In this document: piece after piece, positions 21,554 to 55,617 of the stretch
Layout of the letters: every line of letters begins with the position of its first letter
Position numbering within the stretch: position 1 is the first letter of the stretch
Virus record (IMG/VR): IMGVR_UViG_3300036713_000599
Strand: one strand, 5' to 3'
DNA from: a virus
Lineage: Duplodnaviria > Caudoviricetes
Length of the DNA: 64,000 nt
Notes under the pieces: model-generated
What the model was told of the DNA's origin: nothing
Database searches by the model: none
The model's input: only the letters and a program-made list of their open reading frames with translations
Program-made: the position numbers and the translations under genes

Positions 21554-22023
21554 ACGCGCGCTAATAGGCTCTTAGTTAGCCGCAGTAGAGATAGCCCAGC
21601 CAGTTCAGGGTCGTCGACGCCTATGGACTCACTTACTACTTTTGTCCACTCCGGCCGCCCTTTCAGATCGTACGGAACCCAGCCCATATTGAGGATCACT
21701 TTCCCATTCTTCAGCCCAATTCGTAGTGAGATTCCATCTACAGGGTGACGGGTGGAGAAGAAGTAGTACACGTCGGTACCTCGCTGGCTGACGTTCAGGT
21801 AGTACTTGTCCATGAATTTTTGCCGTAGGAGTTTGAGCAGACGAGGCATCAGTATGTTCACAGACTCCTTAGCCAACTGGATAGCTTCTTGGTCCTCTTT
21901 CGATGCAACAGCAATGGAGGAACCAAGCTTCGCGAACACCCACTCTGGAATAGGCGGGTTCCAGCCTTCCATCGACGTTTGAATGGCCCAGCGAGCTACG
22001 ACTCTACGAATTATACGTTCCAT
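21550..22023 (-). CDS. Hypothetical protein with N-terminal RRVVARW tag
   Basis: 157-aa ORF filling the gap between plus-strand operons. Confidence 0.65.
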   Translation of the reverse strand: MERIIRRVVARWAIQTSMEGWNPPIPEWVFAKLGSSIAVASKEDQEAIQLAKESVNILMPRLLKLLRQKFMDKYYLNVSQRGTDVYYFFSTRHPVDGISLRIGLKNGKVILNMGWVPYDLKGRPEWTKVVSESIGVDDPELAGLSLLRLTKSLLARV

Positions 22024-23735: not shown

Positions 23736-23753
23736 GGAAGTCTGATACCAGAG

Positions 23754-23775: not shown

Positions 23776-23781
23776 CGACCT

Positions 23782-24603: not shown

Positions 24604-24842
24604 ATAATGTACTGGCAATGCTTGAGAACATAGAGGATTCAGAGGACTTTACCGAACAGGAGGCCGAGGAAGCCGTCCTAACCACTAGCTCCAATGATTT
24701 CGTCCAGAAGGTTGTGCGCTATGTACGGGCGGGTAATGTCGTGAGGGGATACGAGGTTCGTCGCTTCGTGAATCATCTTTACGTCCGTGTTAGTTTAACG
24801 GAAACAAAGTTGGTATTCAGAACCGATTGGATAGGGTCATGA
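24600..24842 (+). CDS. Hypothetical protein
   Basis: ATG 24600 overlaps the previous stop; 80 aa. Confidence 0.55.
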   Translation: MNNVLAMLENIEDSEDFTEQEAEEAVLTTSSNDFVQKVVRYVRAGNVVRGYEVRRFVNHLYVRVSLTETKLVFRTDWIGS

Positions 24843-26086: not shown

Positions 26087-26165
26087 TAGAGGCATATATT
26101 AGTACTTGCACGGAAACCTAGAAGAGCTACTCTGTAAACCTACCCAGCATACATGGAGATGAAAA

Positions 26166-27227
26166 ATGACTGAAACACTATCATTCCAAGAAGCACTGGA
26201 AAAGCGCGACTCTCTGAAGGAAGAAGCCGAAGAGGCCCGTAAATTGGCCGATCGCATCCTAAAGGACGCGATCGAGAAGGAAGCAGCGGTTGCCGCCATT
26301 GAAGAAGCACTGAGAGAAATCAGGGTCAGTATTTCTCTTCCGACAAGGGCAGGAAAGGCTGAAGAAAAGGCTGAAGAAAAGGCCGAAGAGAAAGCCGAAG
26401 AGAAAGCCGAAGAGAAAGCCGAAGAGAAAGCCGAAGAGAAAGCCGAGGCTAGCGACAAATCGGAAGTTCTGGAAGAAAAAGCAGCTCCGAAGGCTAAACC
26501 GTCAAGGAAGGGGGGCAAAAAGACCTTCGTGCAGAAGATTGCCCAGGTGATGGGCCAAGATTCCCTCAGAGCCGTTGAGGTCGCAGAACGGATCGAAGCT
26601 GCAGGGTTTACTCCAAATAGCAAGAATGTGGCGAGATATGTTGGAATGGTGCTTTGGCAAAATGAAGGAACTGTGTTTCAACGTGTAGCCACAGGGTTGT
26701 ACCGTGTGGTCCAAGACGGGCCAAAGGGGACCGAGCCCTCGAAGACCAAGAAGACTGAGGCTGCTCCAAAAAGTCCCGCTACGGAAAGTCCTGCTACGGA
26801 GAGGGTTGTCAACGATAAGGGTCGTGTAGAAACGGCCAGTGAGAAAAGACCACCTCTTCGTATCGCGCTGATCAAGGTGATGGGCAGGGGGACTTACACA
26901 GCAGAAGAAGCCCTTAGTCTCCTGGATGAGAGGAAATGGGCCCCGTGCGGGTCTGACCCTCGCAAATACGTTTCAAGCGTACTGTCCTCCTCACCTTCTG
27001 CTTTCGAGAGGGCGCCAGGTCGCGGCCAATACAGAGTAGTGAAAAGTGTCCTGGAGTCGTCTGGCGTGGAAGAAGCCACGGAAGAAACTGTGAAAGAGAA
27101 CGAGGCGGAGCCTGACCCCGGTACCAACGAGAAGATTGAAGACATCTGGGGACTCTCTCCTGAGAACCGAGACTTGGATCCTGATGTGAAAAGTAATCCT
27201 TTCGTTGAAGACACTGCCGGCGCGTAG
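26166..27227 (+). CDS. Coiled-coil + KAEE repeats + two HARE-HTH-like winged-helix domains
   Basis: Two similar modules (IAQVMGQDSLRAVEVAERI...FQRVATGLYRV and LIKVMGRGTYTAEEALSLL...FERAPGRGQYRV) resembling HB1/ASXL-type wHTH. Confidence 0.6.
   Translation: MTETLSFQEALEKRDSLKEEAEEARKLADRILKDAIEKEAAVAAIEEALREIRVSISLPTRAGKAEEKAEEKAEEKAEEKAEEKAEEKAEEKAEASDKSEVLEEKAAPKAKPSRKGGKKTFVQKIAQVMGQDSLRAVEVAERIEAAGFTPNSKNVARYVGMVLWQNEGTVFQRVATGLYRVVQDGPKGTEPSKTKKTEAAPKSPATESPATERVVNDKGRVETASEKRPPLRIALIKVMGRGTYTAEEALSLLDERKWAPCGSDPRKYVSSVLSSSPSAFERAPGRGQYRVVKSVLESSGVEEATEETVKENEAEPDPGTNEKIEDIWGLSPENRDLDPDVKSNPFVEDTAGA
26355..26447 (+). repeat. Coding 12-bp tandem repeat, (KAEE)x7 + KAE
   Basis: AA(G/A)GC(T/C)GAAGA(A/G) units read directly from the sequence. 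Confidence 0.95.
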
Positions 27228-27229
27228 CT

Positions 27230-27239
27230 GGTGTATGCT
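27230..27239 (+). promoter_or_regulatory. GGTG-TATGCT promoter motif
   Basis: Hexamer ends 10 nt before ATG 27246. Confidence 0.65.
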
Positions 27240-27245
27240 GGTAAT

Positions 27246-27749
27246 ATGAAGCTGGGTGATATTGTCCGAACACAAGATGAGTTGTGGAAAGTCACGCTCC
27301 ACAGCTCTGAACATCGAACCTTCACTTTAGTGAACTGGTCAGGGACCAAGACGGAAGTCCCGGATACCCCGACCCCTGAGGTGCAGGTCGTACGCTCCCC
27401 CCAAGACTGGCCCTTCATAGCCCTTCCTATGCGACATGCAAAAGGCCGCATTCTGAGTATATCTCGAATGGGGAAGCAACTGACCCCTCTAAGAGATTGG
27501 GTGCCCAGTGGAATGCTCAGTTCCGGTGGCTCGGTCTTTTTCAGCCCTTCCTTGCGTCTTCGGATAGGAGAGACCCTAATCCTCCACCACAAACAAGGCA
27601 CGAGTAAAGCAAACATCAAGCCCTCTTTCATGAGTGTCAAGAATAGGATTCAGCTCGCGAATAAGCCTTTCAGACCACGCCGCCCGAAGACGACCTTCGA
27701 TCGTCTTGTCGACAATAACTTTGACGACCTCTTTGATCTGGAGGACTAA
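27246..27749 (+). CDS. Hypothetical protein (SH3/KOW-like N-terminus)
   Basis: MKLGDIVRT start; ATG placed by the promoter motif. Confidence 0.6.
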   Translation: MKLGDIVRTQDELWKVTLHSSEHRTFTLVNWSGTKTEVPDTPTPEVQVVRSPQDWPFIALPMRHAKGRILSISRMGKQLTPLRDWVPSGMLSSGGSVFFSPSLRLRIGETLILHHKQGTSKANIKPSFMSVKNRIQLANKPFRPRRPKTTFDRLVDNNFDDLFDLED

Positions 27750-27751
27750 AC

Positions 27752-28330
27752 ATGGACGAAGTTCTGGCTCAGGCTGTCCGACAGCTCCGGGCCGCTAGGG
27801 CCAAGATCACAGTAGATTTCCGCCTCAAAGTTTTAAAAGAGGGCAGAGTCAGCTGTAGAAAAGGCTGTAGTAATTGTTGCCATTATCCGGTGTACGTCTC
27901 TCTGTTGGAAGGAATCCTCATTTACCAAGGGTTACACGATGATCGTCTCTGGACAAACAAGCTAAAGGCAAAGTTCCAAGAGGCCGCAAGAAATACCTGG
28001 GGACAGAGTATAGCTGTGTGGATGTTGAGCAACCGTCCTTGTCCTCTTCTTGGGGACGACGGGTTATGTCGTTCTTACGATAATCGGCCCGTTCATTGCA
28101 GGGTCACCTTTTCCAGAGGGAGTCCCCATGACTGCCACCCGCACCGCTTTCAGGCGAACACGCTTGTTCCCCGACCAGAGACATCAGAGGTCTCAGTCGT
28201 TGAAAGAAGACTCCTAAAGCAGCTCGGGGCGTCCAACGTTTTACTGCCGTTAGCCGCTGCCGTCCTTTTAGGAGAAAGGGTATCGGACGGAGTCCATGTG
28301 AAGGACTTAGTTCAGGAGTTGCCGTGGTAA
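27752..28330 (+). CDS. YkgJ/FliB-family CxxxCxxCC metal-binding protein
   Basis: CRKGCSNCC, CPLL...LCRSYDNRPVHCR. Confidence 0.8.
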   Translation: MDEVLAQAVRQLRAARAKITVDFRLKVLKEGRVSCRKGCSNCCHYPVYVSLLEGILIYQGLHDDRLWTNKLKAKFQEAARNTWGQSIAVWMLSNRPCPLLGDDGLCRSYDNRPVHCRVTFSRGSPHDCHPHRFQANTLVPRPETSEVSVVERRLLKQLGASNVLLPLAAAVLLGERVSDGVHVKDLVQELPW

Positions 28331-28614
28331 TGTGCTGTGTGTGCCATCGGGATTTTGACATAAACACTGGCCGTGAGGTGATACTCACAGCGAAAGAGAA
28401 GCAGGTCATAGCGAGTCAAGGGCAGGAGCCACCTGAGAAGCTCTTGTATTGTACTCCTTGCTGGAAGACTATCTCGGACCCTATTGCTGGGCCAGCCCTC
28501 TTTCGTGGGATTTTTGAGGGGGGACTCCGTAGACTCGGTGTACTTGATGCTGAAGAGCGAGCTAACAAGTATCATGCATGGTTGTCCAAAAAGGCCAGCA
28601 AACCGAGGTCCTGA
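28330..28614 (+). CDS. Small zinc-finger protein
   Basis: CCVCH..YCTPCW; overlapping start/stop codons. Confidence 0.55.
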   Translation: MCCVCHRDFDINTGREVILTAKEKQVIASQGQEPPEKLLYCTPCWKTISDPIAGPALFRGIFEGGLRRLGVLDAEERANKYHAWLSKKASKPRS

Positions 28615-29309
28615 TGAAAAATGATGTTTTGGGAGCGGTCAAAGAACTTCTCAAGATCAAACGAGAGAGAGGCAAGGAGGGGGAAGAGGAATACATCCAA
28701 GCCGTCCAAGAGGTCGCCCAGCGGTTTATGGGGTCACCAGAAGGAGAAGCTGCCTTACGTACATTACTCCCAGACTTTGACTTCGATGCGATAAAGGGGA
28801 GTGGTAAAGCGGACACTCCGCCCATGCCTGAGTTCGGTCAGACTTCACAAGAGCGTATAATGCTCCAAATGCTCGGCCAGCAGATACCCAACATGAAGAC
28901 GCAAGCACAATTGACTGTCTTCATGGCGGCGTTTGATGCTCTCCGCCTCACTCTTAATGGATACTTCGGGAACAGCTTTGTTGCGGCTGAGCAGGCTCGT
29001 ATCGCCCTCGATCAGGCTCTAGATATGAGCAAACAAACAACAGGCATCACTTCAAAAATCCGGGAGGTTGAGAACAAGAGCGACACAGCGAAGAACTTCG
29101 AGGTAGAGACTCTGCCGCCCAGTAACGTCCATGAGTACGACAACGTCAAGGCTCTCATGGCAGGGCTAGGAGCGATCTCTAGTCTCAACGATCTCAACAA
29201 GTGGTATGCACAGAATCGCTCTGCCTTAGACAAAATCGTCGATTCAAAACTCCGTGACCAAGTGTTTGACGCAGTGCGGACAAAAAAACAACAGTTGGAG
29301 GTAAGCTAG
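28614..29309 (+). CDS. Hypothetical helical protein
   Basis: TGATG overlap at 28612-28616; 231 aa. Confidence 0.65.
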   Translation: MKNDVLGAVKELLKIKRERGKEGEEEYIQAVQEVAQRFMGSPEGEAALRTLLPDFDFDAIKGSGKADTPPMPEFGQTSQERIMLQMLGQQIPNMKTQAQLTVFMAAFDALRLTLNGYFGNSFVAAEQARIALDQALDMSKQTTGITSKIREVENKSDTAKNFEVETLPPSNVHEYDNVKALMAGLGAISSLNDLNKWYAQNRSALDKIVDSKLRDQVFDAVRTKKQQLEVS

Positions 29310-30313
29310 TGGCACTCTCTCTGAGTAACATCAAAAATCTCAAACACATCGTGACCCACGCCTATTGTCCTGACGGTACTGCCAGCGCCTTGCTGCTCAA
29401 ACAATGCCTGCCTTGGGCAGACGTGACTTTCGTACAATACAATACAGAGGAACATAAGACCCTTCCCGTGCGAGAGGGGACCATCTTTGCAGACTTTTCA
29501 CCACATGATGATCAAGTCGAAGACTTCGTGAGAGTTGGTGCAGTCGTACTTGACCACCACATAACGAAAAAAGAAGTGGTCGAGAAATTTGGTAAAAATG
29601 GAGTCTTTGGTGACGAAAAAACAGAACCTGGAATAAGTGGAGCTTCCCTCGTCTTCCGTGAGGTATACAAACCGTTGATGGAGAGCCACAGAGTTAGCTC
29701 ACAAGATATACGCAAAGTCCAAGATTTCGCTTATCTTGTTGGCATCAGGGACACATGGCAAAACAAACATAAAAGGTGGAACGAAGCCTGTGCTGTATCA
29801 GAAGCACTGAACTTCTGGCCCTGGAACACCTACAAGTCCCTCAAGGACTTAGAGAGCAAGTTGGAAATTGGTCCAATTCTATTGGAACGCAAGCTCAATG
29901 CTGCCAAAAAGGCGGGAGACGACGCTTGGAGATTCACTACTTCAAGGAAGACGAAGGTCGCAGTCATTGAGGGCGTCAGAATGTCCAGTGACACGGCTGA
30001 ATACCTGGATGACGAAGTTGACCTCGTCATAGGATTCAACGTACGCGCAATAGACGGCAAATCGACCCTGATTTTTTCAAATCGTAGCCATACCTTCTTC
30101 GACTGTGCAGCTTTTGCCACCAAACATGGTGGCGGTGGTCATACACGTGCTGCCGGGTTTGCTTGGCAGCTCGGCCCCAACGATCCTCAGCCCCACACAC
30201 TAATTCGAAGAATCGTCGAACATTACGAACTCACCGGCGAAAGATACAACAGTAAGGTCCCGCTATGGGACCGGCTCCGCTACCTCAAGTGGCTTCACCT
30301 TCAGAGTACCTAA
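29309..30313 (+). CDS. DHH/DHHA1-family phosphoesterase
   Basis: HAYCPDG, FADFS, VLDHH, IRDTW, GGGGHTRAAGF. Confidence 0.85.
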   Translation: MALSLSNIKNLKHIVTHAYCPDGTASALLLKQCLPWADVTFVQYNTEEHKTLPVREGTIFADFSPHDDQVEDFVRVGAVVLDHHITKKEVVEKFGKNGVFGDEKTEPGISGASLVFREVYKPLMESHRVSSQDIRKVQDFAYLVGIRDTWQNKHKRWNEACAVSEALNFWPWNTYKSLKDLESKLEIGPILLERKLNAAKKAGDDAWRFTTSRKTKVAVIEGVRMSSDTAEYLDDEVDLVIGFNVRAIDGKSTLIFSNRSHTFFDCAAFATKHGGGGHTRAAGFAWQLGPNDPQPHTLIRRIVEHYELTGERYNSKVPLWDRLRYLKWLHLQST

Positions 30314-30863
30314 GAGACCTCGTTTCCCATAAGACGTCTAGACTAGACATCTCCGCTCGAATGAACTGGAGTGTCACTTTAGCTCGCTCAATCCCGTTCT
30401 GAATAAGAGTCTCCCGTACATCCAGTCCTGGTTGGCCCACAGAAGCAACTGAGACTCGACTGTAGGCATCATTGGGTAAGTAGTACCAGGCGAGCTGCCG
30501 GGCCGTTCTAGGCCCCTTTCTGAGCCCGTATCGGTCAACTACGTACTGTTTAAATTCCTCAGGTATCTTTATCCAGTCGTCCGACAAGAGAACAGGTACA
30601 GCTTCCCCTCCTACAGTGTAGTAGGGAGCGGGTTCAGGTAATCTGCCTGCAGAAAAATTACGTCGCCTTCGCCCGACCTGGAGGGCCATCCACCGAATGG
30701 TGGAAAGCAGGTACTCCCATTCAGATCCGCCTTCCAATTCACTCTCGAAGCCGATCTGACAGCGACGCGTAAGTAGACAGACAAGGTTATCGTCGGAGGA
30801 GTCAGTGAAGTCGGACCAGGGACGAAAGGCTTCGTCCAAGAAGGTCTCCATCTTGGACTTCAT
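30285..30863 (-). CDS. Hypothetical protein
   Basis: Minus-strand ORF between DHH and the polyvalent gene; start taken at MKSKMETF. Confidence 0.55.
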   Translation of the reverse strand: MKSKMETFLDEAFRPWSDFTDSSDDNLVCLLTRRCQIGFESELEGGSEWEYLLSTIRWMALQVGRRRRNFSAGRLPEPAPYYTVGGEAVPVLLSDDWIKIPEEFKQYVVDRYGLRKGPRTARQLAWYYLPNDAYSRVSVASVGQPGLDVRETLIQNGIERAKVTLQFIRAEMSSLDVLWETRSLRYSEGEAT

Positions 30864-30975
30864 ACGCTGACCTCTGACGGATATTAAAGCTGTTTGGGTC
30901 ATATTTTGGTAAATATTAACATTTCTTGACAGGAGATGCACGACGATAATTGTACTATATGACGGGGATAGTGAA

Positions 30976-33900
30976 ATGGTACAAGCTGCAGCAATGATCA
31001 TTCAGAGAAGCGGGTCTGTCCTCATGTTGAAACGAGGCTCAACAGCCTCATGGATGCCCGGAAAATGGAATTTTCCCACAGGCCGTGTTGAGGATGACGA
31101 GTCCGTTGTTGAAGCCGCAATTCGGGAAACAGCGGAAGAGTCTGGAATAAGTGCGAATTTCCCTCAAAAGGTCATCACTTTGAATTTTCCTGAGGCAACC
31201 GTCACGTACTTCCACACCTTTGATAGCAGTGACACCGAACCAGTTCTCAACTTCGAATCTTCTGAGTATAGGTGGGTTCCTGTTCCCGAGGTGGTGAAAC
31301 TGGACACCATTCCTGGTGTGGACCAGGCTCTCAAGGCGTTGAGTGGGGTGACGAGGGTTGTGGCAAAGCAACAAGCCCTCGCCGTATCGGGGCTCTATGG
31401 TAGGCCTGTTGGCCGATTCGCGTCGTCTTTCAACCTGACTGAATTCAATGCGTTGGCCAGGGATATGCCAACCCTTGATGAGTGGTTTCATGGAGCTTCC
31501 ACATATCTTGAGGACAGAGGGGCCAAGCTCCTAGGCTTTGGTATGGGTCGAAGTGTTTACGCTCTTCCTGGGGACAGAGTTATCAAACTAGCTAAAAGTC
31601 AGTTTGGAAGGGAACAGAACCAACAAGAAGAGTTCTCCTACGACTCATTTCAAAGCCTGAAAATTTTGTTACCTGTCTTGGACGCAGCTGACGACGGAAG
31701 GTGGTTGATCTCACCCCTGGCAAAGTTAGCTAGTAGTAGGGACCTGGTTGCGTGGTCCGGAGTACCACGTGAAGTACTTCACGGTTTATTGGAGGGGGAT
31801 GAATCGCTACCCACATCAGATCTAACTCAGAAAGGCAAGAATCTGATCCGCTTTGCTCAAAAAGAAGACATGGTTGCAGCAGACCTGGTCAAGCTGGACT
31901 CGTGGGGCAAGTGGAGGGGTGAGCTTTGGTTGTTGGACTACGGGTTGAGCAAAGACGTAGCCCGACGCATGAAGAGAACCCTATACAGAGCCGCAGCCAC
32001 TCAACGAGTGGTGGCTCTGTACAAGAACAAGAAACAGGTCAAGAAACAAGACGGCAAAGGAACGACGACCGTCTACGAGTACAGTAAGAGGCAAGTCCAG
32101 CATCGAAATAGGGAAAAGGCCAAAAGAATCGAAAAACTCCGCCAAAGTATTTCGAATCTCCGTGCCCAGGTTGGAAAAGATCTCAAGTCATCGGACCCTG
32201 ACAAGTTCCTCACAGCACTTGCTGTGGGCCTCATAGACGAGACGTATGAGAGGGTCGGTAACGATGTGTCTGCGAAGGGCGGGCACTTCGGCGTCACTGG
32301 GTGGCGAAAGAATCATGTGAGTTTCAACCGAAATAAGGCGATTGTGAGCTACGTCGGCAAGTCGGGAGTAAAGCAGAAAAAGATGGTAAGCAACGCTCCC
32401 CTGGTGCGTGCCTTACGGGACGCTTGTGAGGCCGTTGAGGGAGAAGATTGCCTGTTCTGCCATGACACAGGTAAAGTCGATGCCAACAAGATCAACGCCT
32501 ACCTCCGGAAGTTCGACGTCACAGCAAAAGACATCCGTGGCTTGCACGCCAACGAAGAGATGAAGCAGCGGCTGAGAGCTGTCCGTAAAGGCAAGTTGCC
32601 TGAGGATCCGAAAGAGCGGAAAGCAGTTCTCAAGGATGAGTTTAAAAAGGCCCTGGAAGAAACAGCCAAGATTGTTGGGCACGAGGCGTCAACACTCAAG
32701 GGCCAGTACCTGGTTCCTGGCCTCGAAGACGAGTACGTCTCTAGTGGAGAAATCGTGCAAAAGTTGGACAAGTCGGCAGCCGTCGTAACACGTTATCTTG
32801 AGGCTGCCAAGGTCGTCCGGATTGATGGGCCTTGGGTTGACAAGATGCGCAAAGACTTCTTGATGCTCATGAAGAACATCCCGAGAGCCAAGGACTACGA
32901 TGCGGCGATCCAACTCAAGGAAGGGTTTGACCGGTGGCGACGGCAATCAGCGGAGTTTTTCTTCAAGAGATTCCTGGACAATTCTCTCAAATACGACGAT
33001 CGGATCGTGGAAAAAGTTCGGAAAGAGATAGAACGTAACCTCCGCAAACCTGCCAAAGACTTCTTCGACGAAGCCTACCTTCCCATTGAGCGAGCCAGCG
33101 ACTATACTCCAGCCTCAGTCCAATTCGAACGGTACCTTGAAGACGTAAAGAAGTGGGAGAAAAAGACTCGACGTAAGGCTCAGGTGTTCTGGAAGGCGTT
33201 GAAGGAAGCTCTCTCGATATATGAGAAGGGTTGGTACAAAGGGCCGGACGCACCGTCCACCCTACAAGCCGAGGTTCCCGTCTACGAAAAAACGGTCATC
33301 GAGGGCTTCCAAATTGAAGTTCGCGGCTACGAGCAGAGTGACGATATTGACAGAGAAGCGATGCCAATGATCCGAGAGGCTCTCAAGAGGTATAGGGAGA
33401 GGGCGGCTAAGCGTATACCTTGGGTGCTGAAAAACCAACTCCCGTTAGTACTGGAATTTGAAGCTACTCTGGACGTAGCAGGACGGTACAACCACGACGG
33501 GACAATCACGATTTTTGCATCGGCAGCAATCAACAGCACTCCCGACGCATTGACCAAGACGATGGCTCATGAGATGGGGCACCACTTATGGAGGTTGTTG
33601 AGCGGGGACGCTAGAGAATACTGGTCCACGGCCATTAGCGGAGACTATGGCAAGATTGACGTTCGAGAGCTGCTATCCGGATGGCCTGAAGGCATGTGGG
33701 CTTATGAATATGCTGACTACTTGGCGGACAAGGACCCGATTCTATCCCTTCAGCTAGAAACTGTATGGCCTGGGTATGGTGGACGGCAGGAGATGGTCGA
33801 GAAGCAGGACTTCGAGGATCGCTTGGAGGAAGGCTACACAACACTATCTGTTCCAAAGAACCCAATCTCTGGCTATGCAAGCAAGAACCCCGAAGAGGCA

Positions 33901-34047
33901 TTCTGTGAGGCCGTTGGGATGACAGTAGCTTACGGGAATCGAGCGGTGCTCCCACAGGTCCGCAAATGGCTCAACACTGTAATCCCAGGCCAGGTCAAGA
34001 TAGCAAACATCGTTAGTCGTTATCTTTCGACCCAAGAAGGACTCTGA
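30976..34047 (+). CDS. Polyvalent protein: Nudix + protein-kinase-like + type IB topoisomerase + helical + zincin metallopeptidase
   Basis: Nudix box GRVEDDESVVEAAIRETAEESGI. Kinase GFGMGRSVY..VIKLA..NQQE..DLVKLDSWG..LLDYG. Topo IB pentad ERVGN, VGKSG, KDIRG, VGHE, GQY. Zincin AHEMGH and YASKNPEEAFCEA. Confidence 0.85.
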   Translation: MVQAAAMIIQRSGSVLMLKRGSTASWMPGKWNFPTGRVEDDESVVEAAIRETAEESGISANFPQKVITLNFPEATVTYFHTFDSSDTEPVLNFESSEYRWVPVPEVVKLDTIPGVDQALKALSGVTRVVAKQQALAVSGLYGRPVGRFASSFNLTEFNALARDMPTLDEWFHGASTYLEDRGAKLLGFGMGRSVYALPGDRVIKLAKSQFGREQNQQEEFSYDSFQSLKILLPVLDAADDGRWLISPLAKLASSRDLVAWSGVPREVLHGLLEGDESLPTSDLTQKGKNLIRFAQKEDMVAADLVKLDSWGKWRGELWLLDYGLSKDVARRMKRTLYRAAATQRVVALYKNKKQVKKQDGKGTTTVYEYSKRQVQHRNREKAKRIEKLRQSISNLRAQVGKDLKSSDPDKFLTALAVGLIDETYERVGNDVSAKGGHFGVTGWRKNHVSFNRNKAIVSYVGKSGVKQKKMVSNAPLVRALRDACEAVEGEDCLFCHDTGKVDANKINAYLRKFDVTAKDIRGLHANEEMKQRLRAVRKGKLPEDPKERKAVLKDEFKKALEETAKIVGHEASTLKGQYLVPGLEDEYVSSGEIVQKLDKSAAVVTRYLEAAKVVRIDGPWVDKMRKDFLMLMKNIPRAKDYDAAIQLKEGFDRWRRQSAEFFFKRFLDNSLKYDDRIVEKVRKEIERNLRKPAKDFFDEAYLPIERASDYTPASVQFERYLEDVKKWEKKTRRKAQVFWKALKEALSIYEKGWYKGPDAPSTLQAEVPVYEKTVIEGFQIEVRGYEQSDDIDREAMPMIREALKRYRERAAKRIPWVLKNQLPLVLEFEATLDVAGRYNHDGTITIFASAAINSTPDALTKTMAHEMGHHLWRLLSGDAREYWSTAISGDYGKIDVRELLSGWPEGMWAYEYADYLADKDPILSLQLETVWPGYGGRQEMVEKQDFEDRLEEGYTTLSVPKNPISGYASKNPEEAFCEAVGMTVAYGNRAVLPQVRKWLNTVIPGQVKIANIVSRYLSTQEGL

Positions 34048-34103
34048 GCGGCAGAAGCCTAGGCGGGGGCCTCCGACCTCCCTTGAGCCCTTGTCGGTGC
34101 CTT

Positions 34104-34274
34104 CTAGTCGCCTCTTTGGTCTCTCTGCCAATCTTCCGGAAGAAAACCTCCACTTTCGATCCACTGGTCAAGAGCGTCGAACAACATAACCAAGCGATGA
34201 GCCGTCTCTTGGTCAGGGGTATCGTTTGTAGCGACGATTCTCCGTATTTCTTTGAGGCATTCGTTTGGATCCAT
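34104..34274 (-). CDS. Small phage protein (56 aa)
   Basis: Hand-translated MDPNECLKEIRR...LFDALDQWIESGGFLPEDW. SD GGAGG and a promoter motif lie upstream. Confidence 0.7.
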   Translation of the reverse strand: MDPNECLKEIRRIVATNDTPDQETAHRLVMLFDALDQWIESGGFLPEDWQRDQRGD

Positions 34275-34279
34275 AGCTC

Positions 34280-34289
34280 CTCCTACACC
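34280..34289 (-). promoter_or_regulatory. GGTG-TA promoter motif
   Basis: TACACC 34284-34289, 9 nt from the start codon at 34274. Confidence 0.5.
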
Positions 34290-34324
34290 GAAAGAGGGCG
34301 GCCCTTTAGGGACGGATAGTTTAC
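34289..34324 (+). mobile_element. 36-bp minimal IS605 derivative (left-end tip + hybrid hairpin + right-end tip)
   Basis: TACAC|CGAAAGAGGGCG-GCCCTTTAGGGACGGA-TAGTTTAC|CA matches both termini of the 59028-60766 element. Confidence 0.8.
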
Positions 34325-34352
34325 CAGAATTTATCTATTCAGCCGCCCTCAC

Positions 34353-34679
34353 GTGACTGACGAACTCGACATCCGATGGCAACGAAACTTCGAGGCAACC
34401 CAGCGGAGGCTTGAGGCCAAAGAAAGGGCCATTGCCTACCTTGGAGGTAAATGTCGTATCTGCGGCTACGACAAGTGCCCCGCTGCCATGGCTTTCCACC
34501 ACCTGGACCCGAGGGAGAAGGACTTTGAGGTCAGCTCTCGCCTCTCTTGGGGAGCGGTTAAGCCTGAGTTGGATAAATGTGTGTTATTGTGTTCCAACTG
34601 CCATCAAGAGGTGCATGCTGGATGGCATCCAGAGTATTTGAGCGACGAGGAGCTTGGTGTGCGGGGCGACGACACCTGA
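34353..34679 (+). CDS. HNH endonuclease
   Basis: GGKCRICGY..FHHLDP..KCVLLCSNCHQEVH. Confidence 0.85.
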   Translation: MTDELDIRWQRNFEATQRRLEAKERAIAYLGGKCRICGYDKCPAAMAFHHLDPREKDFEVSSRLSWGAVKPELDKCVLLCSNCHQEVHAGWHPEYLSDEELGVRGDDT

Positions 34680-34693
34680 CGCTTGTTGACCGG

Positions 34694-35566
34694 CTAGTCT
34701 TCTTGTTTGGACCATTCAATTTCTGGCACATCTCTCTCTCGCCGTCCAATAATGACAAGTTCCTTGACCGGCCCTCTCTTGTCGCCCCTAGAGTTGATGC
34801 ACCGCCTTGCCGCAACCTCATGAGTCTCAAAGCCGTTGTACAAGTCGCGGATATGGGCCGTATTGGAGTTTGAGAGCACGACCTTCACCCCTCGGTCGAC
34901 CAGGGTCCGGAAAGTTTCGGCTAACCTCTTTTGGTCCTCGTAAGTGAACCCGTCTTTGGTGTAACTGGTGAAGTTCGAAGTGGCGTTAAGGGGAGCATAA
35001 GGCGGATCAAAGTAGACGAGATCGTCTTCAACGGCAGGAGCTACCACCTTGGCGAAGTCGTCACAGTAGAGGGCAGCGTACTGATTAAGAGCCTCAGAGC
35101 ATTTGAGAAGGTTGGGAGCATCGAGCGTCTTTGGTGTCTTGGCCCACCTGCCGTAAGAGACGTTGAACTTTCCCTTTTTGTTGACGCGGTAGAGTCCGTT
35201 GAAACACAGCTTGTTGAGATAGATCGTTCGAGCGGCACGTCGGGCTGGGCTTATGTCGTTAGGGTCCAACTCCCTGAGTTGCATGAACGTTTCCCTGTTA
35301 ACCTCCCAACACTTCAGCTGATCAATGAGGTCGTTGGGAAAACTACGGACCGCGCGGTAGCAGTCGATCAGTTCTTGGTTGGCATCGTTGAGGATCGCTC
35401 TACCAAAGTGAAAGTTCTTGCGAGAAGCCATGCCAAAAAAGGCCGCCCCTCCCCCAACAAAGGGCTCATAATAAGTGCCACATTGTTTGGGGAAGATGTC
35501 TAAGAGGAGGGGCAGAATCCCACGTTTGCCTCCAGCCCATTTGAGGAAGGGGCGTACCACTGTCAT
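34694..35566 (-). CDS. dam: Dam-family (D12 class) N6-adenine DNA methyltransferase
   Basis: PFLKWAGGK, YYEPFVGGGA, FNGLYRVNKKGKFNV, VYFDPPY, FTSY, LSNS. Confidence 0.92.
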   Translation of the reverse strand: MTVVRPFLKWAGGKRGILPLLLDIFPKQCGTYYEPFVGGGAAFFGMASRKNFHFGRAILNDANQELIDCYRAVRSFPNDLIDQLKCWEVNRETFMQLRELDPNDISPARRAARTIYLNKLCFNGLYRVNKKGKFNVSYGRWAKTPKTLDAPNLLKCSEALNQYAALYCDDFAKVVAPAVEDDLVYFDPPYAPLNATSNFTSYTKDGFTYEDQKRLAETFRTLVDRGVKVVLSNSNTAHIRDLYNGFETHEVAARRCINSRGDKRGPVKELVIIGRRERDVPEIEWSKQED

Positions 35567-36771
35567 TGGGATTTCCTCTCCTTAGCCCTATCGTACATCT
35601 TCTTCTTAGCCCTATCGTACATCGCCACTGAAACTTCCCTCGTACCATCAGGCGTCACGAGGTAGTACGTGTTAGCTAAATCGAGCCTCCGAGAGGAATG
35701 AGCCTCTGGACACTTCTCTGTGTTAGAGTTCACCCAAGTGCGAGCAATAACATTTCCCTCATCAGGAAATTTGAAAACATAAGTTCTGCGAAAACCCCAT
35801 TCCAAGAAACCTAGGCATAGGGGGTGCCCGCTTGTGATTTCCTGTTCGTCGACCTTACCCATGATATCCAAGTAACCAAAAGCTCGACTTATTCTAGGAA
35901 TCCTAGAGAACTTAGTGTTGCACCGGTACATCAGGAGGCAAGGAGTGAGTCGACCGTTTAGCCGGAGCTTGACGACCTCGGGCCGAGAAGGGAATGCGGA
36001 TATATCATACTCCTTCATGCCAGGGTACGTGAAGTTTATGTAGGCGAGCACGGCTTCCAGCTCGCCCATAGTGAGCCCTTTTTGTTTGAAGAAGGACTCC
36101 ACTGGAGGAAGGCACTCATCGTACGGGACTCCCTCCAGTGCTTCGACCACGATGGATTTCACTGGCTCTTTCAGCTGTGAGAACCAAGAGACGCAGAGGT
36201 TTGGTTCAATAATGGCTCTTTCGTCGGGTGCCGGCCATTTCCTCTTAGGCACTGTGATAGACTCGATTTGGCCTAAAATGTCAGATTCCGTAGTCCGATC
36301 CCAACCCAAGGACCAGCTCCTGCTCCCACAATCCCGCGCGAACCTAACCAGCCGCGTCCGAATGTTGCCTTTATCCTCACAGTCCGGAACCTTGAGGTGC
36401 CACAGCTCCAAATGCAGCCGGAGGAGGTCCCTGTACCATGGAGGGGAGTGGTTCTGGAACCACACCACCCATTCGTCAGGGCAGTCCCCCCGAACTTTTG
36501 ACTCCCTCGGATCCATTTCGTAGCTCCGGCCTCCTATTTCGACTTTTCCGTCTTTCTCCGAAGGATCTTCGAGAATGAAGAGTATGTTCGTCAGCGTCTG
36601 AGTCATCTTCTCTTTCTGAGCGGCCAACATGAAGTCGCACAGAGTTTGCCAGTCTTGTCTGGGAGCGTGATCCCTGAATAGATCGACGGCCCTACGAATG
36701 GGCCTTGTGTCGTTTCTGCCAGGTAGCATGACGACGGGGAACTTGTAGTCCTTGGGTGTCTTAAATTCCAC
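35563..36771 (-). CDS. Hypothetical protein (402 aa)
   Basis: Long ORF overlapping the dam start; C-terminal MYDRAK duplicated by a 24-bp direct repeat at about 35581-35623. Confidence 0.7.
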   Translation of the reverse strand: MEFKTPKDYKFPVVMLPGRNDTRPIRRAVDLFRDHAPRQDWQTLCDFMLAAQKEKMTQTLTNILFILEDPSEKDGKVEIGGRSYEMDPRESKVRGDCPDEWVVWFQNHSPPWYRDLLRLHLELWHLKVPDCEDKGNIRTRLVRFARDCGSRSWSLGWDRTTESDILGQIESITVPKRKWPAPDERAIIEPNLCVSWFSQLKEPVKSIVVEALEGVPYDECLPPVESFFKQKGLTMGELEAVLAYINFTYPGMKEYDISAFPSRPEVVKLRLNGRLTPCLLMYRCNTKFSRIPRISRAFGYLDIMGKVDEQEITSGHPLCLGFLEWGFRRTYVFKFPDEGNVIARTWVNSNTEKCPEAHSSRRLDLANTYYLVTPDGTREVSVAMYDRAKKKMYDRAKERKSQ

Positions 36772-36806
36772 GGATAGCCTCCAGGGTCATGGCGAGTAGG
36801 GCTTGT

Positions 36807-37478
36807 TTATTCGTCTGGCAGCTCCCACGACCTTTTTGGAAATTGAGCTTCGGCGAGAATCTTTCGGATTGGGCCAAAACTTCTACGATGGATCTCACAT
36901 ACACCAAATTTCTCAAGAGCCTGTCGATGTTTTTTGCTTCCTCCGTAACCCGCGTTGTTTTTGAAGTCGTACTCCGGGTACTTCTTGTCGAACTCCGCCA
37001 TGAACCTGAGCTGAGTCGCTTTAGCGAAGACGGAGGCAAGGGACACGGCTGGAATAAGAGCATCCGCCTTAGGGACAAGCATAAGCCTCTCTATGGCGTT
37101 TTCTCTAACGGTAGGAGGTACGATGCCATCAACCACCACAAACAGCTTCTGGCCGCTAAAGAGGGCCTCAACGGCCTTACCTTGAGCGAGTGCCTGGGCA
37201 GTGTTGAGCCCTATACGATCGATTTCGTCAGCATGCACGACACCGATGCTGTGCTTCACGTGTTGATTCTCACGAAAGAGCTTCTGTATCGTCTTGCGGG
37301 TGAGCTTCTTGGAGTCGTCCAATGAAGGCGGGGGCTTCCAGTCAGGAGGTACAGCGACCGCAGCGGCGACAATTGGCCCTGCCCATGGTCCGCGTCCAGC
37401 TTCGTCCACGCCAACAATGACGGCGGGAGCGTTTTCCTGGACATACTCTTCGACTTGCTCTTTTGAGTTGATCTTCAT
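36807..37478 (-). CDS. rnhB: Ribonuclease HII
   Basis: GVDEAGRGPWAGP, DDSKKL, VVDG, KADA..VSLASVFAK, NAGYG, HRRSF. Confidence 0.92.
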   Translation of the reverse strand: MKINSKEQVEEYVQENAPAVIVGVDEAGRGPWAGPIVAAAVAVPPDWKPPPSLDDSKKLTRKTIQKLFRENQHVKHSIGVVHADEIDRIGLNTAQALAQGKAVEALFSGQKLFVVVDGIVPPTVRENAIERLMLVPKADALIPAVSLASVFAKATQLRFMAEFDKKYPEYDFKNNAGYGGSKKHRQALEKFGVCEIHRRSFGPIRKILAEAQFPKRSWELPDE

Positions 37479-54135: not shown

Positions 54136-55617
54136 ATGAGCCTATCTGAACTTGTTAAAAGGGACCCTAAGAGAGCCTTTGGCCTTATTTTACAAGAAAA
54201 GATTGCAGGTGGTATTGACGTGTCGGAACCCGTCCAGCCCCTGTTGCCAGGTATGTCGGGCATGTTGGGCTCCATGTCCTCGTGGGATATAGCACATGGA
54301 GCCTACGCCTTTGACTATATCGCGGGTTATGACAAGGATCCACGAGTCAAGAAGTTTGCAAACGACCTCGCCACAGAATACGCTCGTCGGTTTGCTGACT
54401 GGCTTGGCTATGTCTTCCTGAACCGAGCAAACATGACGAAGCACAGCAAGCCTATGAAGGCGTTGCAGGCGTCGCTCGGTGACTGGGTCGAGGCTATTCC
54501 TGAAATGCTCATGCAAGGCAAGCCCAAGGTCCTCAGTGAGTTCGTTCCAAGCGACGCTCGCAAGTTTCTAGACATGAAGGTCGTCGATGCCATTGGCCGA
54601 AAAATCTTAAAAGTCGTACAACAAGACTGGGCCAAATCCTCCCGGACCGCACGGGGAGGGCTCAGGGACCTACCCATTACTTACAATCCTAGGTACAAGC
54701 GGTACGAAATCCCCAAGTCCAAGTTAACATATCCTCATCGGAACAAGCTCCGCGACCTCGGTTTCGACACAAATCGTAATCTCGACGTATGGTGGACGGA
54801 GATACTAGAATCCGCCGCCATTCGAGCCCTGCCACAAGCAGCAGACATAAAAAGACAGAGCGAGCCAGCTCCAGCTCCAAAAGGGGACCCCTCCGACTGG
54901 TTCTTTGATGACTGGCTTCCTGGTAACATCCAACGCTTCTCGAAGGTGTTCAATGCCTTCGGGCGAGGCGCGGGCATCCCGTACGAGTTCGACTTCACCG
55001 TCTCGGGCAAAGATGTTGAGGTGAGCTTCAGGCGAAACGTCAAGACGATAAAGGACGCTGTGGCCGAACTGACGGCTCGGTACGGGGGAGCAAACGACCG
55101 AGACGGTTGGATGACGGCCATTGCGGCATGGAAACAGCTCATGTCAGCCTCGGGCAAGGCAGCTATACATGCGGTAGACATGGCTAACAATCTCGAACAC
55201 ACCCACGGTGCAATGATGGAGCACTTCCCTCCAGGTGTGCGCCGATGGTACCCTAGTTTCCTCGACTACAAATACACTGCAAGTGCCATCCAGATGATCA
55301 AGCGAATCAAAGACGAGGACCTTCGAGTTGTAGCAATGGAACTTCTGCCTCTACGTGACCGTAAAGAAAGACTCGTCATTGAAGATAAGAGCCACAGGAC
55401 GCCAAAAGGACTTGCTTTGGAGATTAGTTCGCAGGCAGGCAAAGCGAACAAGAAAAAAATGCTCAGGGGCGTAAAGGACCGTTATCCTGACATGTACGAT
55501 GACGTGGTAAAGAACCTGGAGGAGAAGGGGTTGTTCCTGACGGCGTCCCTCACTCCCCGACGCATTGTGTCAAGGTACCTGCACGAGGCCAAGCTGTCTC
55601 CACAGCAACGCGGCTAA
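54136..55617 (+). CDS. Hypothetical multidomain protein with C-terminal TASLTPRRIVSRYL tag
   Basis: 493-aa ORF; no catalytic motif recognised. Confidence 0.75.
   Translation: MSLSELVKRDPKRAFGLILQEKIAGGIDVSEPVQPLLPGMSGMLGSMSSWDIAHGAYAFDYIAGYDKDPRVKKFANDLATEYARRFADWLGYVFLNRANMTKHSKPMKALQASLGDWVEAIPEMLMQGKPKVLSEFVPSDARKFLDMKVVDAIGRKILKVVQQDWAKSSRTARGGLRDLPITYNPRYKRYEIPKSKLTYPHRNKLRDLGFDTNRNLDVWWTEILESAAIRALPQAADIKRQSEPAPAPKGDPSDWFFDDWLPGNIQRFSKVFNAFGRGAGIPYEFDFTVSGKDVEVSFRRNVKTIKDAVAELTARYGGANDRDGWMTAIAAWKQLMSASGKAAIHAVDMANNLEHTHGAMMEHFPPGVRRWYPSFLDYKYTASAIQMIKRIKDEDLRVVAMELLPLRDRKERLVIEDKSHRTPKGLALEISSQAGKANKKKMLRGVKDRYPDMYDDVVKNLEEKGLFLTASLTPRRIVSRYLHEAKLSPQQRG

What the first reader, a model, noticed from the sequence alone, without database searches (positions are those of the whole stretch)
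30976..34047. 1023-aa polyvalent protein fusing Nudix, kinase, topoisomerase IB and metallopeptidase
Seen: four catalytic signatures, each apparently intact, including all five Topo IB residues (R in ERVGN, K in GKSG, R in KDIR, H in VGHE, Y in GQY). Known: phage polyvalent proteins (Iyer/Aravind) combine unrelated conflict domains with zincin peptidases thought to release them. I do not recall this specific combination, especially with Topo IB. Inference: a virion-packaged, self-processing early-takeover protein that relaxes incoming DNA, degrades nucleotide signals and phosphorylates host targets.
Basis: partly seen in the sequence, partly recalled or inferred. Interest (0 to 1): 0.75.

Follow-up and report, generated by a model that had tools for sequence, protein, structure and literature searches.

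The report
Huge-phage multi-enzyme protein with topoisomerase IB
A ~280-kb uncultured sediment phage encodes one real 1023-residue protein that strings together a Nudix hydrolase, a small kinase-like domain, a complete type IB DNA topoisomerase and an anthrax-lethal-factor-like zinc peptidase. The parts are separated by a short recurring peptide tag, and the protein belongs to a large family of modular phage proteins that I did not find described in the papers I could search.

Summary
The ORF is real, at 30976..34047 (+), 1023 aa. Identical contigs from two sediment studies carry it.

**Domains**
- Pfam confirms the Nudix domain (aa 4-110, Nudix box intact) and Topo IB (aa 375-575).
- The Topo IB pentad R426/K462/R521/H569/Y578 is essentially invariant in about 197 relatives.
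- The C-terminal 410 aa form a conserved module: a four-helix bundle plus a gluzincin. HExxH and E974 are invariant. The AF2 model has pLDDT 94 and is closest to anthrax LF and PPEP peptidases.
- The "kinase" (aa ~150-336) rests only on motifs and weak fold and language-model hits.

**Family**
- It has about 770 clusters.
- Topo IB cassettes occur alone, with the zincin module in either order, or in proteins up to 3196 aa.
- Partner domains are mostly RNA-end or nucleotide enzymes, plus LPD1.
- A peptide tag (consensus A-x-R-V-A-A-R-Y-L) marks cassette borders. It also marks the termini of separate proteins: 289 tags against 1.8 expected.

**Verdict**
This is a new variant of the known polyvalent phage proteins. 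Packaging, self-cleavage, signal degradation and host phosphorylation are not shown. The locus lies among replication genes in three syntenic phages.

Earlier notes of this scan reported the same cassette family on other DNA.

The parts
30976..34047 (+). Whole gene, 1023 aa (P0001)
   Evidence: ORF list and translation. The same gene call appears on ENA and Logan contigs. Logan contigs cover it in one piece.
30976..31350 (+). Nudix hydrolase cassette (aa 1-125), MutT/NudG-like, Nudix box at aa 36-58
   Evidence: PF00293 E 8e-16. phrog_1198. NCBIfam MutT-type hits are below the equivalog cut-offs. PDB 3grn E 7e-10.
31351..31425 (+). Junction 1 (aa 126-150): a weak tag TRVVAKQ followed by the linker ALAVSGLYGRPVGRFAS
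   Evidence: A linker HMM finds the same ~35-aa motif in 8 other family proteins, E 1e-17 to 1e-21.
31426..31983 (+). Kinase-like cassette (aa ~151-336), truncated protein-kinase-like fold (tentative)
   Evidence: phrog_4301. Stand-alone homologues P0227 and P0228. A copy at the C-end of P0139. Weak kinase-family fold and feature hits. The AF2 model has only pLDDT 61.
32002..32775 (+). Minimal type IB topoisomerase cassette (aa 343-600). It opens with the tag QRVVALYKNKK. Pentad: R426, K462, R521, H569, Y578.
   Evidence: PF01028 E 6e-22. Alignment to 2f4q and 2h7f. Pentad conservation. A 76-sequence alignment has 64% mean column identity.
32770..32805 (+). Tag at the Topo/zincin-module border (aa 599-610, KSAAVVTRYLEA)
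   Evidence: PSSM score 19.6. The same position carries the tag in many relatives.
32806..33249 (+). Four-helix bundle, the first half of the conserved C module (aa 611-758)
   Evidence: AF2 model pLDDT 94. It matches only generic helical bundles.
33283..33999 (+). Gluzincin peptidase-like domain (aa 770-1008): HEMGH 865-869, third ligand E974
   Evidence: Invariant H/E/H/E in 85 homologues. VIA Z 10.9 to anthrax LF 1yqy_A, and 9.3-9.5 to PPEP-2/3. Atlas M90/ATLF/M1 clusters. BFVD matches to the phage PaBG putative peptidase and to an M34-annotated phage protein, E 1e-6 to 1e-8.
33997..34044 (+). C-terminal tag (aa 1008-1023, VKIANIVSRYLSTQEGL)
   Evidence: PSSM score 19.1. By regex, 41 tag instances follow the zincin-module ends of the ~85 homologues.
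21973..22014 (-). The same tag at the N-terminus of a separate 157-aa protein (MERIIRRVVARWAIQ)
   Evidence: PSSM score 15.7. The window total is 7 hits against 0.38 expected from shuffles.
55552..55593 (+). The same tag near the C-terminus of a separate 493-aa protein (TASLTPRRIVSRYLHEA)
   Evidence: PSSM score 14.3. This protein has no family assignment.

Best explanation
P0001 is a modular, polyvalent-type multi-enzyme protein of a huge phage. It is built from four autonomous cassettes:
- a MutT/NudG-like Nudix hydrolase;
- a small kinase-like domain;
- a minimal Topo IB;
- a four-helix bundle fused to an LF-like gluzincin.

**Shown**
- The domain identities, with the kinase only tentative.
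- Intact catalytic residues under strong conservation.
- Each cassette type also exists as a stand-alone gene or in other combinations.
- Cassette borders and many protein termini carry a short basic amphipathic tag (A-x-R-V-A-A-R-Y-L). It is often preceded by [KR]-x-A-[SA].
- The ancestral core at this syntenic locus is Topo IB plus the zincin module. The Nudix and kinase-like cassettes were added at the N-terminus.

**Inferred**
- The Topo IB relaxes supercoils in phage, and perhaps host, DNA through a Y578 phosphotyrosyl intermediate.
- The Nudix domain hydrolyses a (d)NTP-like or capped substrate.
- The tags are address or processing signals, and at them the chain is handled as separate enzymes. 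My preferred reading, at about 40%, is that they load the cassettes into the capsid and mark where a protease cuts. The protease would be the phage maturation protease or the built-in zincin. An active topoisomerase and its companions would then enter the next cell with the DNA, as in poxviruses.

The overall confidence applies to the modular, tag-delimited polyvalent reading including cargo loading. The domain-level statements alone are above 0.9.
For: **Domains and residues:**

**Modularity**
- About 770 clusters at E < 1e-30.
- Architecture census: Topo only 136, Topo plus C module about 53, C only 28, and Nudix-Topo-C in 5.
- The C module lies before or after Topo.
- Partner domains include PolyA_pol, 2H, HAD_SAK_1, RNA ligase, PAP2, HD, cREC, GNAT, ParB_N and LPD1.
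- The kinase-like cassette is also found stand-alone and at the end of P0139.

**Tags**
- Stand-alone Topo proteins begin M-x5-RVAARYK.
- Stand-alone C modules begin and end with the tag.
- The family has 289 tags against 1.8 in shuffles: 74 N-terminal and 19 C-terminal.
- [KR]xA[SAGNT] lies just upstream of 27% of tags, against a 5.6% background.
- The window has 7 hits against 0.38 expected, and relatives' loci have 4 against 0.18 and 7 against 0.18, mostly at termini.
- The tag segments are the least confident parts of the model, which fits exposed peptides.

**Hints of head association elsewhere**
- P0035 lies 6 kb from a weak capsid hit, with DUF5661, PolyA_pol and HD as separate neighbouring genes.
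- A PHROG portal family carries a homologous Nudix domain.
- The distant Topo I of phage PaBG lies between the tail-sheath and major-head genes.
Against: - In this phage and two syntenic relatives the gene sits among replication, repair and nucleotide-metabolism genes: SNF2 and DnaB helicases, a Pol III alpha-like polymerase, ThyX-like, DHH, Dam methylase and RNase HII. No head gene was identified among the window ORFs I scanned.
- None of the roughly 125 family members with Pfam data (listing) is fused to a portal or MuF domain.
- No cleavage, packaging or enzyme activity has been observed.
- The tag PSSM was derived from this same family. Its family-wide count is therefore partly circular. 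The hits at Topo starts and in neighbouring genes are independent of how it was built.
- Terminal peptides shared by many proteins could equally be docking motifs for an intracellular hub.
Confidence: 0.45

Rival explanations
1. An intracellular replication and repair multi-enzyme that is not packaged. It would be expressed with the replisome genes. The Topo IB would relieve supercoiling during replication and transcription of the ~280-kb genome. The Nudix domain would sanitise or channel the dNTP pool. The tags would dock many DNA-metabolism proteins onto a common intracellular hub, or serve as degrons for the phage ClpX.
For: - Synteny is conserved inside a replication and nucleotide-metabolism block in three phages.
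- The Nudix domain matches MutT/NudG types best.
- The Topo module is unusually conserved for a conflict effector, at 64% mean column identity.
- A phage ClpX gene lies next to a tagged ORF.
Against: - A replication role does not explain why cassettes are shuffled so freely, or why they are fused to RNA-end enzymes and LPD1.
- The tag does not resemble known clamp-binding motifs (my own knowledge).
- Some family members lie near capsid genes.
Confidence: 0.3
2. A nucleic-acid end-repair kit. In this reading the family is a phage 'Swiss-army-knife' repair system in which Topo IB works beside enzymes that heal RNA or DNA ends, countering host nucleases that cut tRNA or DNA. In P0001 the Nudix and kinase-like domains would play the end-modifying roles.
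For: - The Pfam-recognised partners of the Topo cassette are mostly RNA-end enzymes. In the listing these are PolyA_pol/CCA-type NTase in 8 proteins, PAP2 in 11, HAD_SAK_1 in 7, 2H phosphoesterase in 5-6, RNA ligase in 3, HD in 2 and cREC in 1 (names confirmed).
- Topo IB chemistry yields and reseals 5'-OH ends (established biochemistry, recalled).
Against: - P0001 itself has no ligase, 2H or HAD domain.
- The same enzyme types are also typical counter-signal effectors.
- No RNA substrate evidence exists.
- The key comparative paper (Burroughs and Aravind 2016) could not be read here.
Confidence: 0.15
3. A topoisomerase with its own crosslink protease. The conserved zincin module would remove trapped Topo IB-DNA covalent complexes, much as SPRTN/Wss1 does for eukaryotic Top1.
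For: - About two thirds of proteins with the C module also carry Topo IB, in either order. Minimal 654-aa proteins consist of just the two.
- In PaBG a SprT-like gene lies four genes from the distant Topo I.
- The C module of P0004 has a sub-threshold SprT-like hit around its HExxH motif.
Against: - Stand-alone C modules occur with no Pfam-annotated Topo gene within 6 kb.
- Most Topo cassettes lack the C module.
- The fold is closest to LF, PPEP and MtfA, not to SprT or Wss1.
Confidence: 0.1
4. An artefact: an assembly chimera of separate genes, or a decaying pseudogene with inactive domains.
For: None was found. Metagenomic origin is the only reason to ask.
Against: - The same contig sequence appears in runs of two studies with no differences or joints.
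- The protein is on 3 contigs.
- Nudix-Topo-C relatives at 42-72% identity lie on independent contigs.
- All catalytic residues are intact.
- GC content is even across the ORF.
Confidence: 0.01

Closest known systems
Polyvalent proteins of phages and conjugative elements (Iyer, Burroughs, Anand, de Souza, Aravind 2017, PMC5512222)
   Same: - Several unrelated enzyme domains sit in one phage polypeptide.
- A zincin peptidase is a recurrent hub.
- A truncated kinase lacking the C-lobe is one of the described domain types.
- LPD1 is present in relatives.
- Cassettes are shuffled extensively.
   Different: - Topo IB is the commonest cassette here, and that paper does not mention it.
- The zincin is an LF/PPEP-like gluzincin with a four-helix bundle, and no Pfam MPTase model hits it.
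- The partners are mostly RNA-end enzymes.
- This locus is not next to head or MuF genes.
- The borders carry a conserved tag.
Poxvirus and bacterial type IB topoisomerases (variola 2h7f, Deinococcus 2f4q)
   Same: PF01028, the same R-K-R-H-Y pentad, and alignment over the catalytic domain. Poxvirus Topo IB is carried in the virion (recalled).
   Different: - The cassette is only ~258 aa. The alignment starts at about residue 62 of the solved enzymes, so most of the N-terminal DNA-clamping domain is missing.
- It is embedded in a polyprotein behind a basic RVAARYK-x-KK tag.
- It shares only 26-32% identity with the Topo I of cultured jumbo phages (PaBG, NCTB, Rhizobium and Xanthomonas phages). 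Iyer et al. 2021 (PMC7824862) note such a phage-specific enzyme in PaBG, NCTB, phiRSL1 and others.
Anthrax lethal factor / Pro-Pro endopeptidase (M34) and MtfA (M90) gluzincins
   Same: HExxH with a downstream Glu on a later helix. This is the best structural match (Z 10.9 and 9.3-9.5). The Atlas cluster carries M90/ATLF.
   Different: - No sequence-level family membership.
- About 100 residues are inserted between HExxH and the Glu ligand.
- It is fused to a four-helix bundle.
- The substrate is unknown.
Capsid-targeting sequences of T4 internal proteins and encapsulin cargo-loading peptides (recalled, not tested)
   Same: A short peptide shared by otherwise unrelated proteins, at a terminus and sometimes next to a protease site.
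   Different: Here the tag also lies between cassettes inside one chain, and at either terminus. Nothing shows that it binds a capsid or scaffold.

Membership tests
Type IB topoisomerase (PF01028) | Sequence match above the Pfam gathering score | tested here: met
   78.6 bits against a cut-off of 23.7.
Type IB topoisomerase (PF01028) | Catalytic pentad Arg-Lys-Arg-His/Asn-Tyr in register | tested here: met
   R426, K462, R521, H569 and Y578 align with the FRVGSD, KGKHGV, TAKDFR, GN and SY motifs of 2f4q. They are conserved in 196-198 of about 198 relatives.
Type IB topoisomerase (PF01028) | N-terminal DNA-binding (clamp) domain | tested here: inconclusive
   The alignment begins at residue ~62 of 2f4q and ~63 of 2h7f. 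Only a short basic segment and a hairpin precede the core, and no structure of this cassette was predicted.
Type IB topoisomerase (PF01028) | DNA relaxation through a 3'-phosphotyrosyl intermediate | not testable with these tools
   Needs a relaxation assay with a Y578F control.
Nudix hydrolases (PF00293) | Pfam match plus an intact Nudix box GX5EX7REUXEEXGU | tested here: met
   58.7 bits against 21.1. The box is complete at aa 36-58.
Nudix hydrolases (PF00293) | Substrate class (MutT/NudG, RppH or ADPR type) | tested here: inconclusive
   The best NCBIfam and PDB matches are MutT/NudG-like, but all fall far below the equivalog cut-offs.
Protein-kinase-like fold (including Kinase-PolyVal PF18762) | Sequence match to a kinase family model | tested here: inconclusive
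   No Pfam family apart from YrbL at E 0.09. phrog_4301 has no known function.
Protein-kinase-like fold (including Kinase-PolyVal PF18762) | Gly-rich loop, beta3 Lys, catalytic Asp and DxG metal-binding Asp | tested here: met
   GFGMGRSVY, K204, D303/K306 and D321-Y-G are invariant, but in only three homologues.
Protein-kinase-like fold (including Kinase-PolyVal PF18762) | Bilobal kinase fold | tested here: inconclusive
   - The AF2 model has pLDDT 61.
- VIA found nothing above Z 4.7.
- AFDB clusters give many kinase-named hits at E 6e-3 to 0.09.
- Named Atlas neighbours are all kinase families at 0.89-0.92.
Gluzincin metallopeptidases (clan MA; M34/M90-like) | HExxH plus a downstream Glu ligand on a later helix | tested here: met
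   H865, E866, H869 and E974 are invariant in 85 sequences. Both motifs lie on helices of the pLDDT-94 model.
Gluzincin metallopeptidases (clan MA; M34/M90-like) | Zincin fold similarity to solved members | tested here: met
   - VIA: Z 10.9 to LF (160 aa, rmsd 3.6), Z 9.5 to PPEP-3, Z 9.3 to PPEP-2 and Z 8.9 to 4l7a.
- Foldseek gives only weak matches to M1, LF and collagenase.
Gluzincin metallopeptidases (clan MA; M34/M90-like) | Sequence membership in M34 or M90 | tested here: inconclusive
   No Pfam, PHROG or PDB sequence hit to the module.
Polyvalent proteins (Iyer et al. 2017) | Two or more unrelated, mostly enzymatic domains in one polypeptide of a phage or plasmid | tested here: met
   Four cassettes. 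Huge-phage context.
Polyvalent proteins (Iyer et al. 2017) | Hallmark domains (zincin MPTase, LPDs) and combinatorial architectures | tested here: met
   Zincin module in P0001. LPD1 above the cut-off in P0034 and listed for P0055. Dozens of architectures.
Polyvalent proteins (Iyer et al. 2017) | Link to virion or transfer machinery (head-gene neighbourhood, MuF or portal fusion) | tested here: inconclusive
   This was not seen at this locus or in two syntenic relatives. There is a weak capsid neighbour for P0035. The rest of this genome could not be examined.

The most novel reading that the evidence does not exclude
Huge phages may use a peptide-addressed cargo system. A short tag (A-x-R-V-A-A-R-Y-L, often behind a [KR]-x-A|[SA] site) would load many unrelated enzymes into the capsid, either singly or strung together as polyproteins, and would mark where they are cut apart. 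An active type IB topoisomerase, a lethal-factor-like protease and nucleotide or RNA-end enzymes would then be injected with the DNA. That would be a bacterial-virus parallel to the virion topoisomerase of poxviruses.
Probability: 0.3. Interest if true: 0.8.

Novelty: new variant of a known kind. Interest (0 to 1): 0.55.

Why it matters
- Type IB topoisomerases are thought of as eukaryotic, poxviral and sporadically bacterial enzymes. Here a minimal, highly conserved Topo IB is the commonest cassette of a very large family of modular huge-phage proteins (hundreds of 50%-identity clusters).
- The family is a natural experiment in domain shuffling with clearly marked joints.
- If the border tag proves to be an address or cleavage signal, it would give a way to predict the packaged or processed proteome of uncultured huge phages from sequence alone. 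It could also serve as a handle for loading foreign proteins into capsids.
- The conserved pairing of Topo IB with an LF-like zincin poses a concrete, testable biochemical question.

Tried and rejected
- **Complex prediction, Topo cassette against the zincin module:** no answer (score 0.00). This is not evidence either way.
- **Nucleotide search against phages:** no match. tblastn of the stand-alone kinase-like homologue P0227 against phages also found nothing.
- **Kinase cassette in viral contigs (search for related loci):** nothing.
- **PDB profile search with the kinase-like alignment:** chance-level only.
- **VIA search with the low-confidence kinase model:** best Z 4.7, uninformative.
- **Whole-genome search and search via locus L009:** the genome is not held. 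I therefore could not test whether the tag is enriched on head proteins of this phage.
- **Sigma-70 promoter scan upstream of the gene:** an exact TTGACA lies at 30926, but no -10 box at canonical spacing. Expression class is unresolved.
- **Sequencing runs:** no RNA holder listed.
- **Neighbours of stand-alone C modules:** no Pfam-annotated Topo gene within 6 kb. I therefore dropped the idea that the two modules are obligate partners.
- **Neighbours of stand-alone kinase-like genes:** no clear split version of the polyprotein.
- **Atlas look-up of the tagged 493-aa protein:** nothing usable.
- **Burroughs and Aravind 2016 (RNA-repair 'Swiss army knife'):** could not be read.
- **PaBG virion proteomics paper (PMC7412058):** the passages I searched do not mention Topo I among the virion proteins.


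Full report
**Observation**

The window has one uninterrupted ORF at 30976..34047 on the + strand, 1023 aa. GC content is even across it. The identical protein is called on ENA and Logan contigs. Logan contigs from sediment-metagenome runs of two studies cover 30500-34500 in one piece with no differences, joints or loose ends. These runs may be the source samples. Independent relatives with the same Nudix-Topo-zincin order (P0002-P0005, 42-72% identity per domain) sit on other contigs. It is a real gene, not an assembly fusion.

**Domains**

- **Nudix (aa 4-110).** Pfam places a NUDIX domain here (E 8e-16). The Nudix box is complete at aa 36-58. The closest solved and curated relatives are MutT/NudG-type nucleoside-triphosphate pyrophosphohydrolases, all far below equivalog thresholds. 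The substrate is therefore open.
- **Topo IB (aa 375-575; cassette aa 343-600).** Pfam places the Topoisom_I catalytic core here (E 6e-22). They align with the catalytic residues of Deinococcus TopIB 2f4q. They are conserved in 196-198 of about 198 family members. The cassette is about 258 aa, and the alignment starts near residue 62 of the solved enzymes, so most of the N-terminal clamp domain is missing.
- **C-terminal module (aa ~600-1023).** Sequence libraries find nothing here, yet it is a conserved module with 75 homologous pieces. H865, E866, H869 and E974 are invariant. An AlphaFold2 model built on that alignment is confident (pLDDT 94, pTM 0.87). It shows a four-helix bundle (aa ~611-758) followed by a zincin domain (aa ~770-1008).
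  - The best structural matches of the zincin domain are the anthrax lethal factor catalytic domain (Z 10.9, 160 residues, rmsd 3.6) and Pro-Pro endopeptidases (Z 9.3-9.5).
  - Weaker agreeing matches are M1, LF and collagenase chains and an M90/ATLF-labelled Atlas cluster.
  - Phage matches are the PaBG putative peptidase, an M34-annotated Erwinia phage protein and an uncharacterised Motura protein.
- **Middle segment (aa ~150-336), the weak point.**
  - It matches only phrog_4301, of unknown function.
  - It has two stand-alone homologues of ~200 aa, and a copy at the C-end of another family protein.
  - Its model is poor (pLDDT 61).
  - Kinase-like motifs are invariant in the three sequences: a Gly-rich loop, K204, D303-x2-K306 and D321-Y-G.
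  - AFDB clusters and Atlas named clusters (Phage_T7_kinase, Kinase-PolyVal, Pkinase, YrbL, APH) all point to the protein-kinase-like fold.
  - The domain ends right after the DxG strand. That matches the C-lobe-less kinases described for polyvalent proteins (PMC5512222).
  - I rate "kinase-like" at about 0.7 and "active protein kinase" at much less.

**Family**

An exhaustive phmmer search of 1.84 billion representatives found 770 clusters at E < 1e-30. Among the 226 retrieved proteins:
- the Topo cassette occurs without the C module in 136;
- it occurs together with the C module in about 53;
- the C module occurs alone in 28;
- the C module can lie before or after Topo.

Proteins reach 3196 aa. 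The Pfam-recognised partners are mostly RNA-end or nucleotide enzymes: PolyA_pol/CCA-type nucleotidyltransferase, 2H phosphoesterase, HAD_SAK_1, RNA ligase, PAP2, HD, cREC and Nudix. Others are GNAT, ParB_N, AIG2/GGACT, DUF5661 and LPD1, a polyvalent-protein hallmark domain. The Topo cassette is very conserved, with 64% mean column identity over 76 sequences.

**Context**

The window is the replication and nucleotide-metabolism region of a huge phage. It encodes SNF2-like and DnaB-like helicases, a Pol III alpha-like polymerase, a ThyX-like enzyme, ClpX, a DHH phosphoesterase, Dam methylase and RNase HII.

The same neighbourhood surrounds P0002 on a 372-kb contig. It also surrounds P0020 on a 239-kb contig. 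P0020 is only Topo plus C module, 654 aa. The ancestral gene at this locus was therefore Topo plus zincin, and the Nudix and kinase-like cassettes are later N-terminal additions. P0002 carries a different insert where P0001 has the kinase-like cassette.

Elsewhere the picture differs. P0035, on a 531-kb contig, lies 6 kb from a weak capsid hit, beside separately encoded DUF5661, PolyA_pol and HD genes. The distant Topo I of cultured phage PaBG lies between the tail-sheath and major-head genes.

**Border tag**

I followed a lead from another first-stage note. Each cassette border in P0001 carries a related peptide:
- TRVVAKQ at aa ~127;
- QRVVALYKNKK at aa 343;
- AAVVTRYLEA at aa 601;
- ANIVSRYLST at aa 1010.

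Across the family:
- the Topo cassette opens with RVAARYK-x-KK, and stand-alone Topo proteins begin M-x5-RVAARYK;
- stand-alone C modules begin with the tag, and many end with it;
- a PSSM built from C-module borders (consensus IAQRVAARYLAA) finds 289 tags in the 228 proteins against 1.8 in shuffles, with 74 within the first 15 residues and 19 at C-termini;
- [KR]-x-A-[SAGNT] lies just upstream in 27% of cases, against a 5.6% background.

In the window the PSSM gives 7 hits against 0.38 expected. These include the N-terminus of the 157-aa ORF 21550-22023(-) and the C-terminal end of the 493-aa ORF 54136-55617(+). The relatives' loci give 4 against 0.18 and 7 against 0.18, again mostly at termini of separate small proteins.

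A second linker...ALSLSGLYGKPVMR..., follows a paralogous zincin in eight family proteins and follows the Nudix domain in P0001.

The tags coincide with the least confident ends of the C-module model. The cassettes are therefore autonomous units delimited by a conserved, probably exposed signal.

**Mechanism**

- **Shown:** domain identities, intact and conserved catalytic residues, modularity, and the tag.
- **Inferred:** the Topo IB relaxes DNA, the Nudix domain hydrolyses a nucleotide-type substrate, and the tags are address or processing signals.
- **Preferred reading (about 0.4-0.45):** cassettes are loaded and cut apart as capsid cargo.
- **Main rival (0.3):** an intracellular replication-associated enzyme whose tags dock onto a cellular or phage hub.
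- **Other rivals:** the RNA-end partner set suggests a nucleic-acid end-repair kit (0.15). The Topo-zincin pairing suggests a built-in crosslink protease (0.1), although stand-alone zincin modules have no Pfam-annotated Topo gene within 6 kb.
- A complex prediction for Topo against the zincin module gave no answer.

**Known versus new**

The class is known: polyvalent proteins (PMC5512222). That paper does not mention Topo IB. The jumbo-phage survey PMC7824862 notes only a phage-specific stand-alone topoisomerase I in PaBG, phiRSL1, Lu11 and others. The Topo genes that tblastn finds in PaBG, NCTB and other cultured jumbo phages are 26-32% identical to this cassette. I found no paper describing Topo IB-centred polyproteins, the LF-like module or the tag. 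My search was limited to open-access texts.

Earlier notes of this same scan report the same cassette family, and similar tags, in other genomes. Some of those sit next to portal genes. I treat these notes as leads, not evidence.

**Verdict:** a new variant of a known kind. Interest is moderate to high.

Noticed in passing
window 21973-22014 (-) and 55552-55593 (+); possibly 53035-53727 (+): The border tag of the polyprotein also sits at the N-terminus of a 157-aa ORF next to the phage ClpX gene, and near the C-terminus of a 493-aa ORF with no known family. A third, weaker hit lies in an ORF that overlaps minus-strand ORFs.
   Followed up: partly
P0001 aa 132-150 (window 31369-31425), and P0072, P0076, P0121, P0122, P0016, P0163, P0177, P0187: A second conserved junction peptide, ...YRMQRALSLSGLYGKPVMR.... 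In eight relatives it follows a paralogous HExxH...NEKEDFAESF zincin. In P0001 it follows the Nudix domain.
   Followed up: partly
window, 45 sites (for example 3305, 7361, 22457, 23766): The hexamer GGTGTA occurs 45 times against 18 expected, often 15-30 nt before start codons. It could be a ribosome-binding or promoter element of this phage.
   Followed up: no
window 30926-30958: An exact TTGACA lies upstream of the gene in the divergent intergenic region, but no -10 hexamer sits at canonical spacing. The expression class of the gene is unresolved.
   Followed up: partly
L010 (Pseudomonas phage PaBG, NC_022096.1 47530-65955): The distant Topo I of PaBG (gp084) lies between the tail-sheath and major-head genes. 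It is four genes from a SprT-like (Spartan-like) protein and five from a HAD-like protein.
   Followed up: no
L002, L009 and window 22473-37478: A conserved gene order recurs in three huge-phage contigs of 239-372 kb: DUF1848, a CxxCxxCC protein, the Topo-zincin gene, then Dam methylase and RNase HII or AAA_28. ClpX precedes it in the window and in L002, and the DHH-sized gene is also seen there. The cassette content of the Topo gene differs between the three.
   Followed up: partly
L011 (LR745208.1 392432-417130) and LR745208.1 463002-464270: In a 485-kb uncultured phage the Topo cassette sits in a 508-aa ORF behind a 170-aa N-terminal domain and a tag. The zincin module is a separate gene 58 kb away.
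   Followed up: partly
ENA contig of P0035 (531 kb; no DNA held): Next to the 1620-aa family member lie separate DUF5661, HD and PolyA_pol genes. The PolyA_pol gene is interrupted by an intein with a LAGLIDADG endonuclease. A weak capsid-family hit lies 6 kb downstream.
   Followed up: no
window 12813-13937 (+): The TnpB-like ORF gives a weak tag match near its C-terminus (score 11.2). This is probably chance.
   Followed up: no
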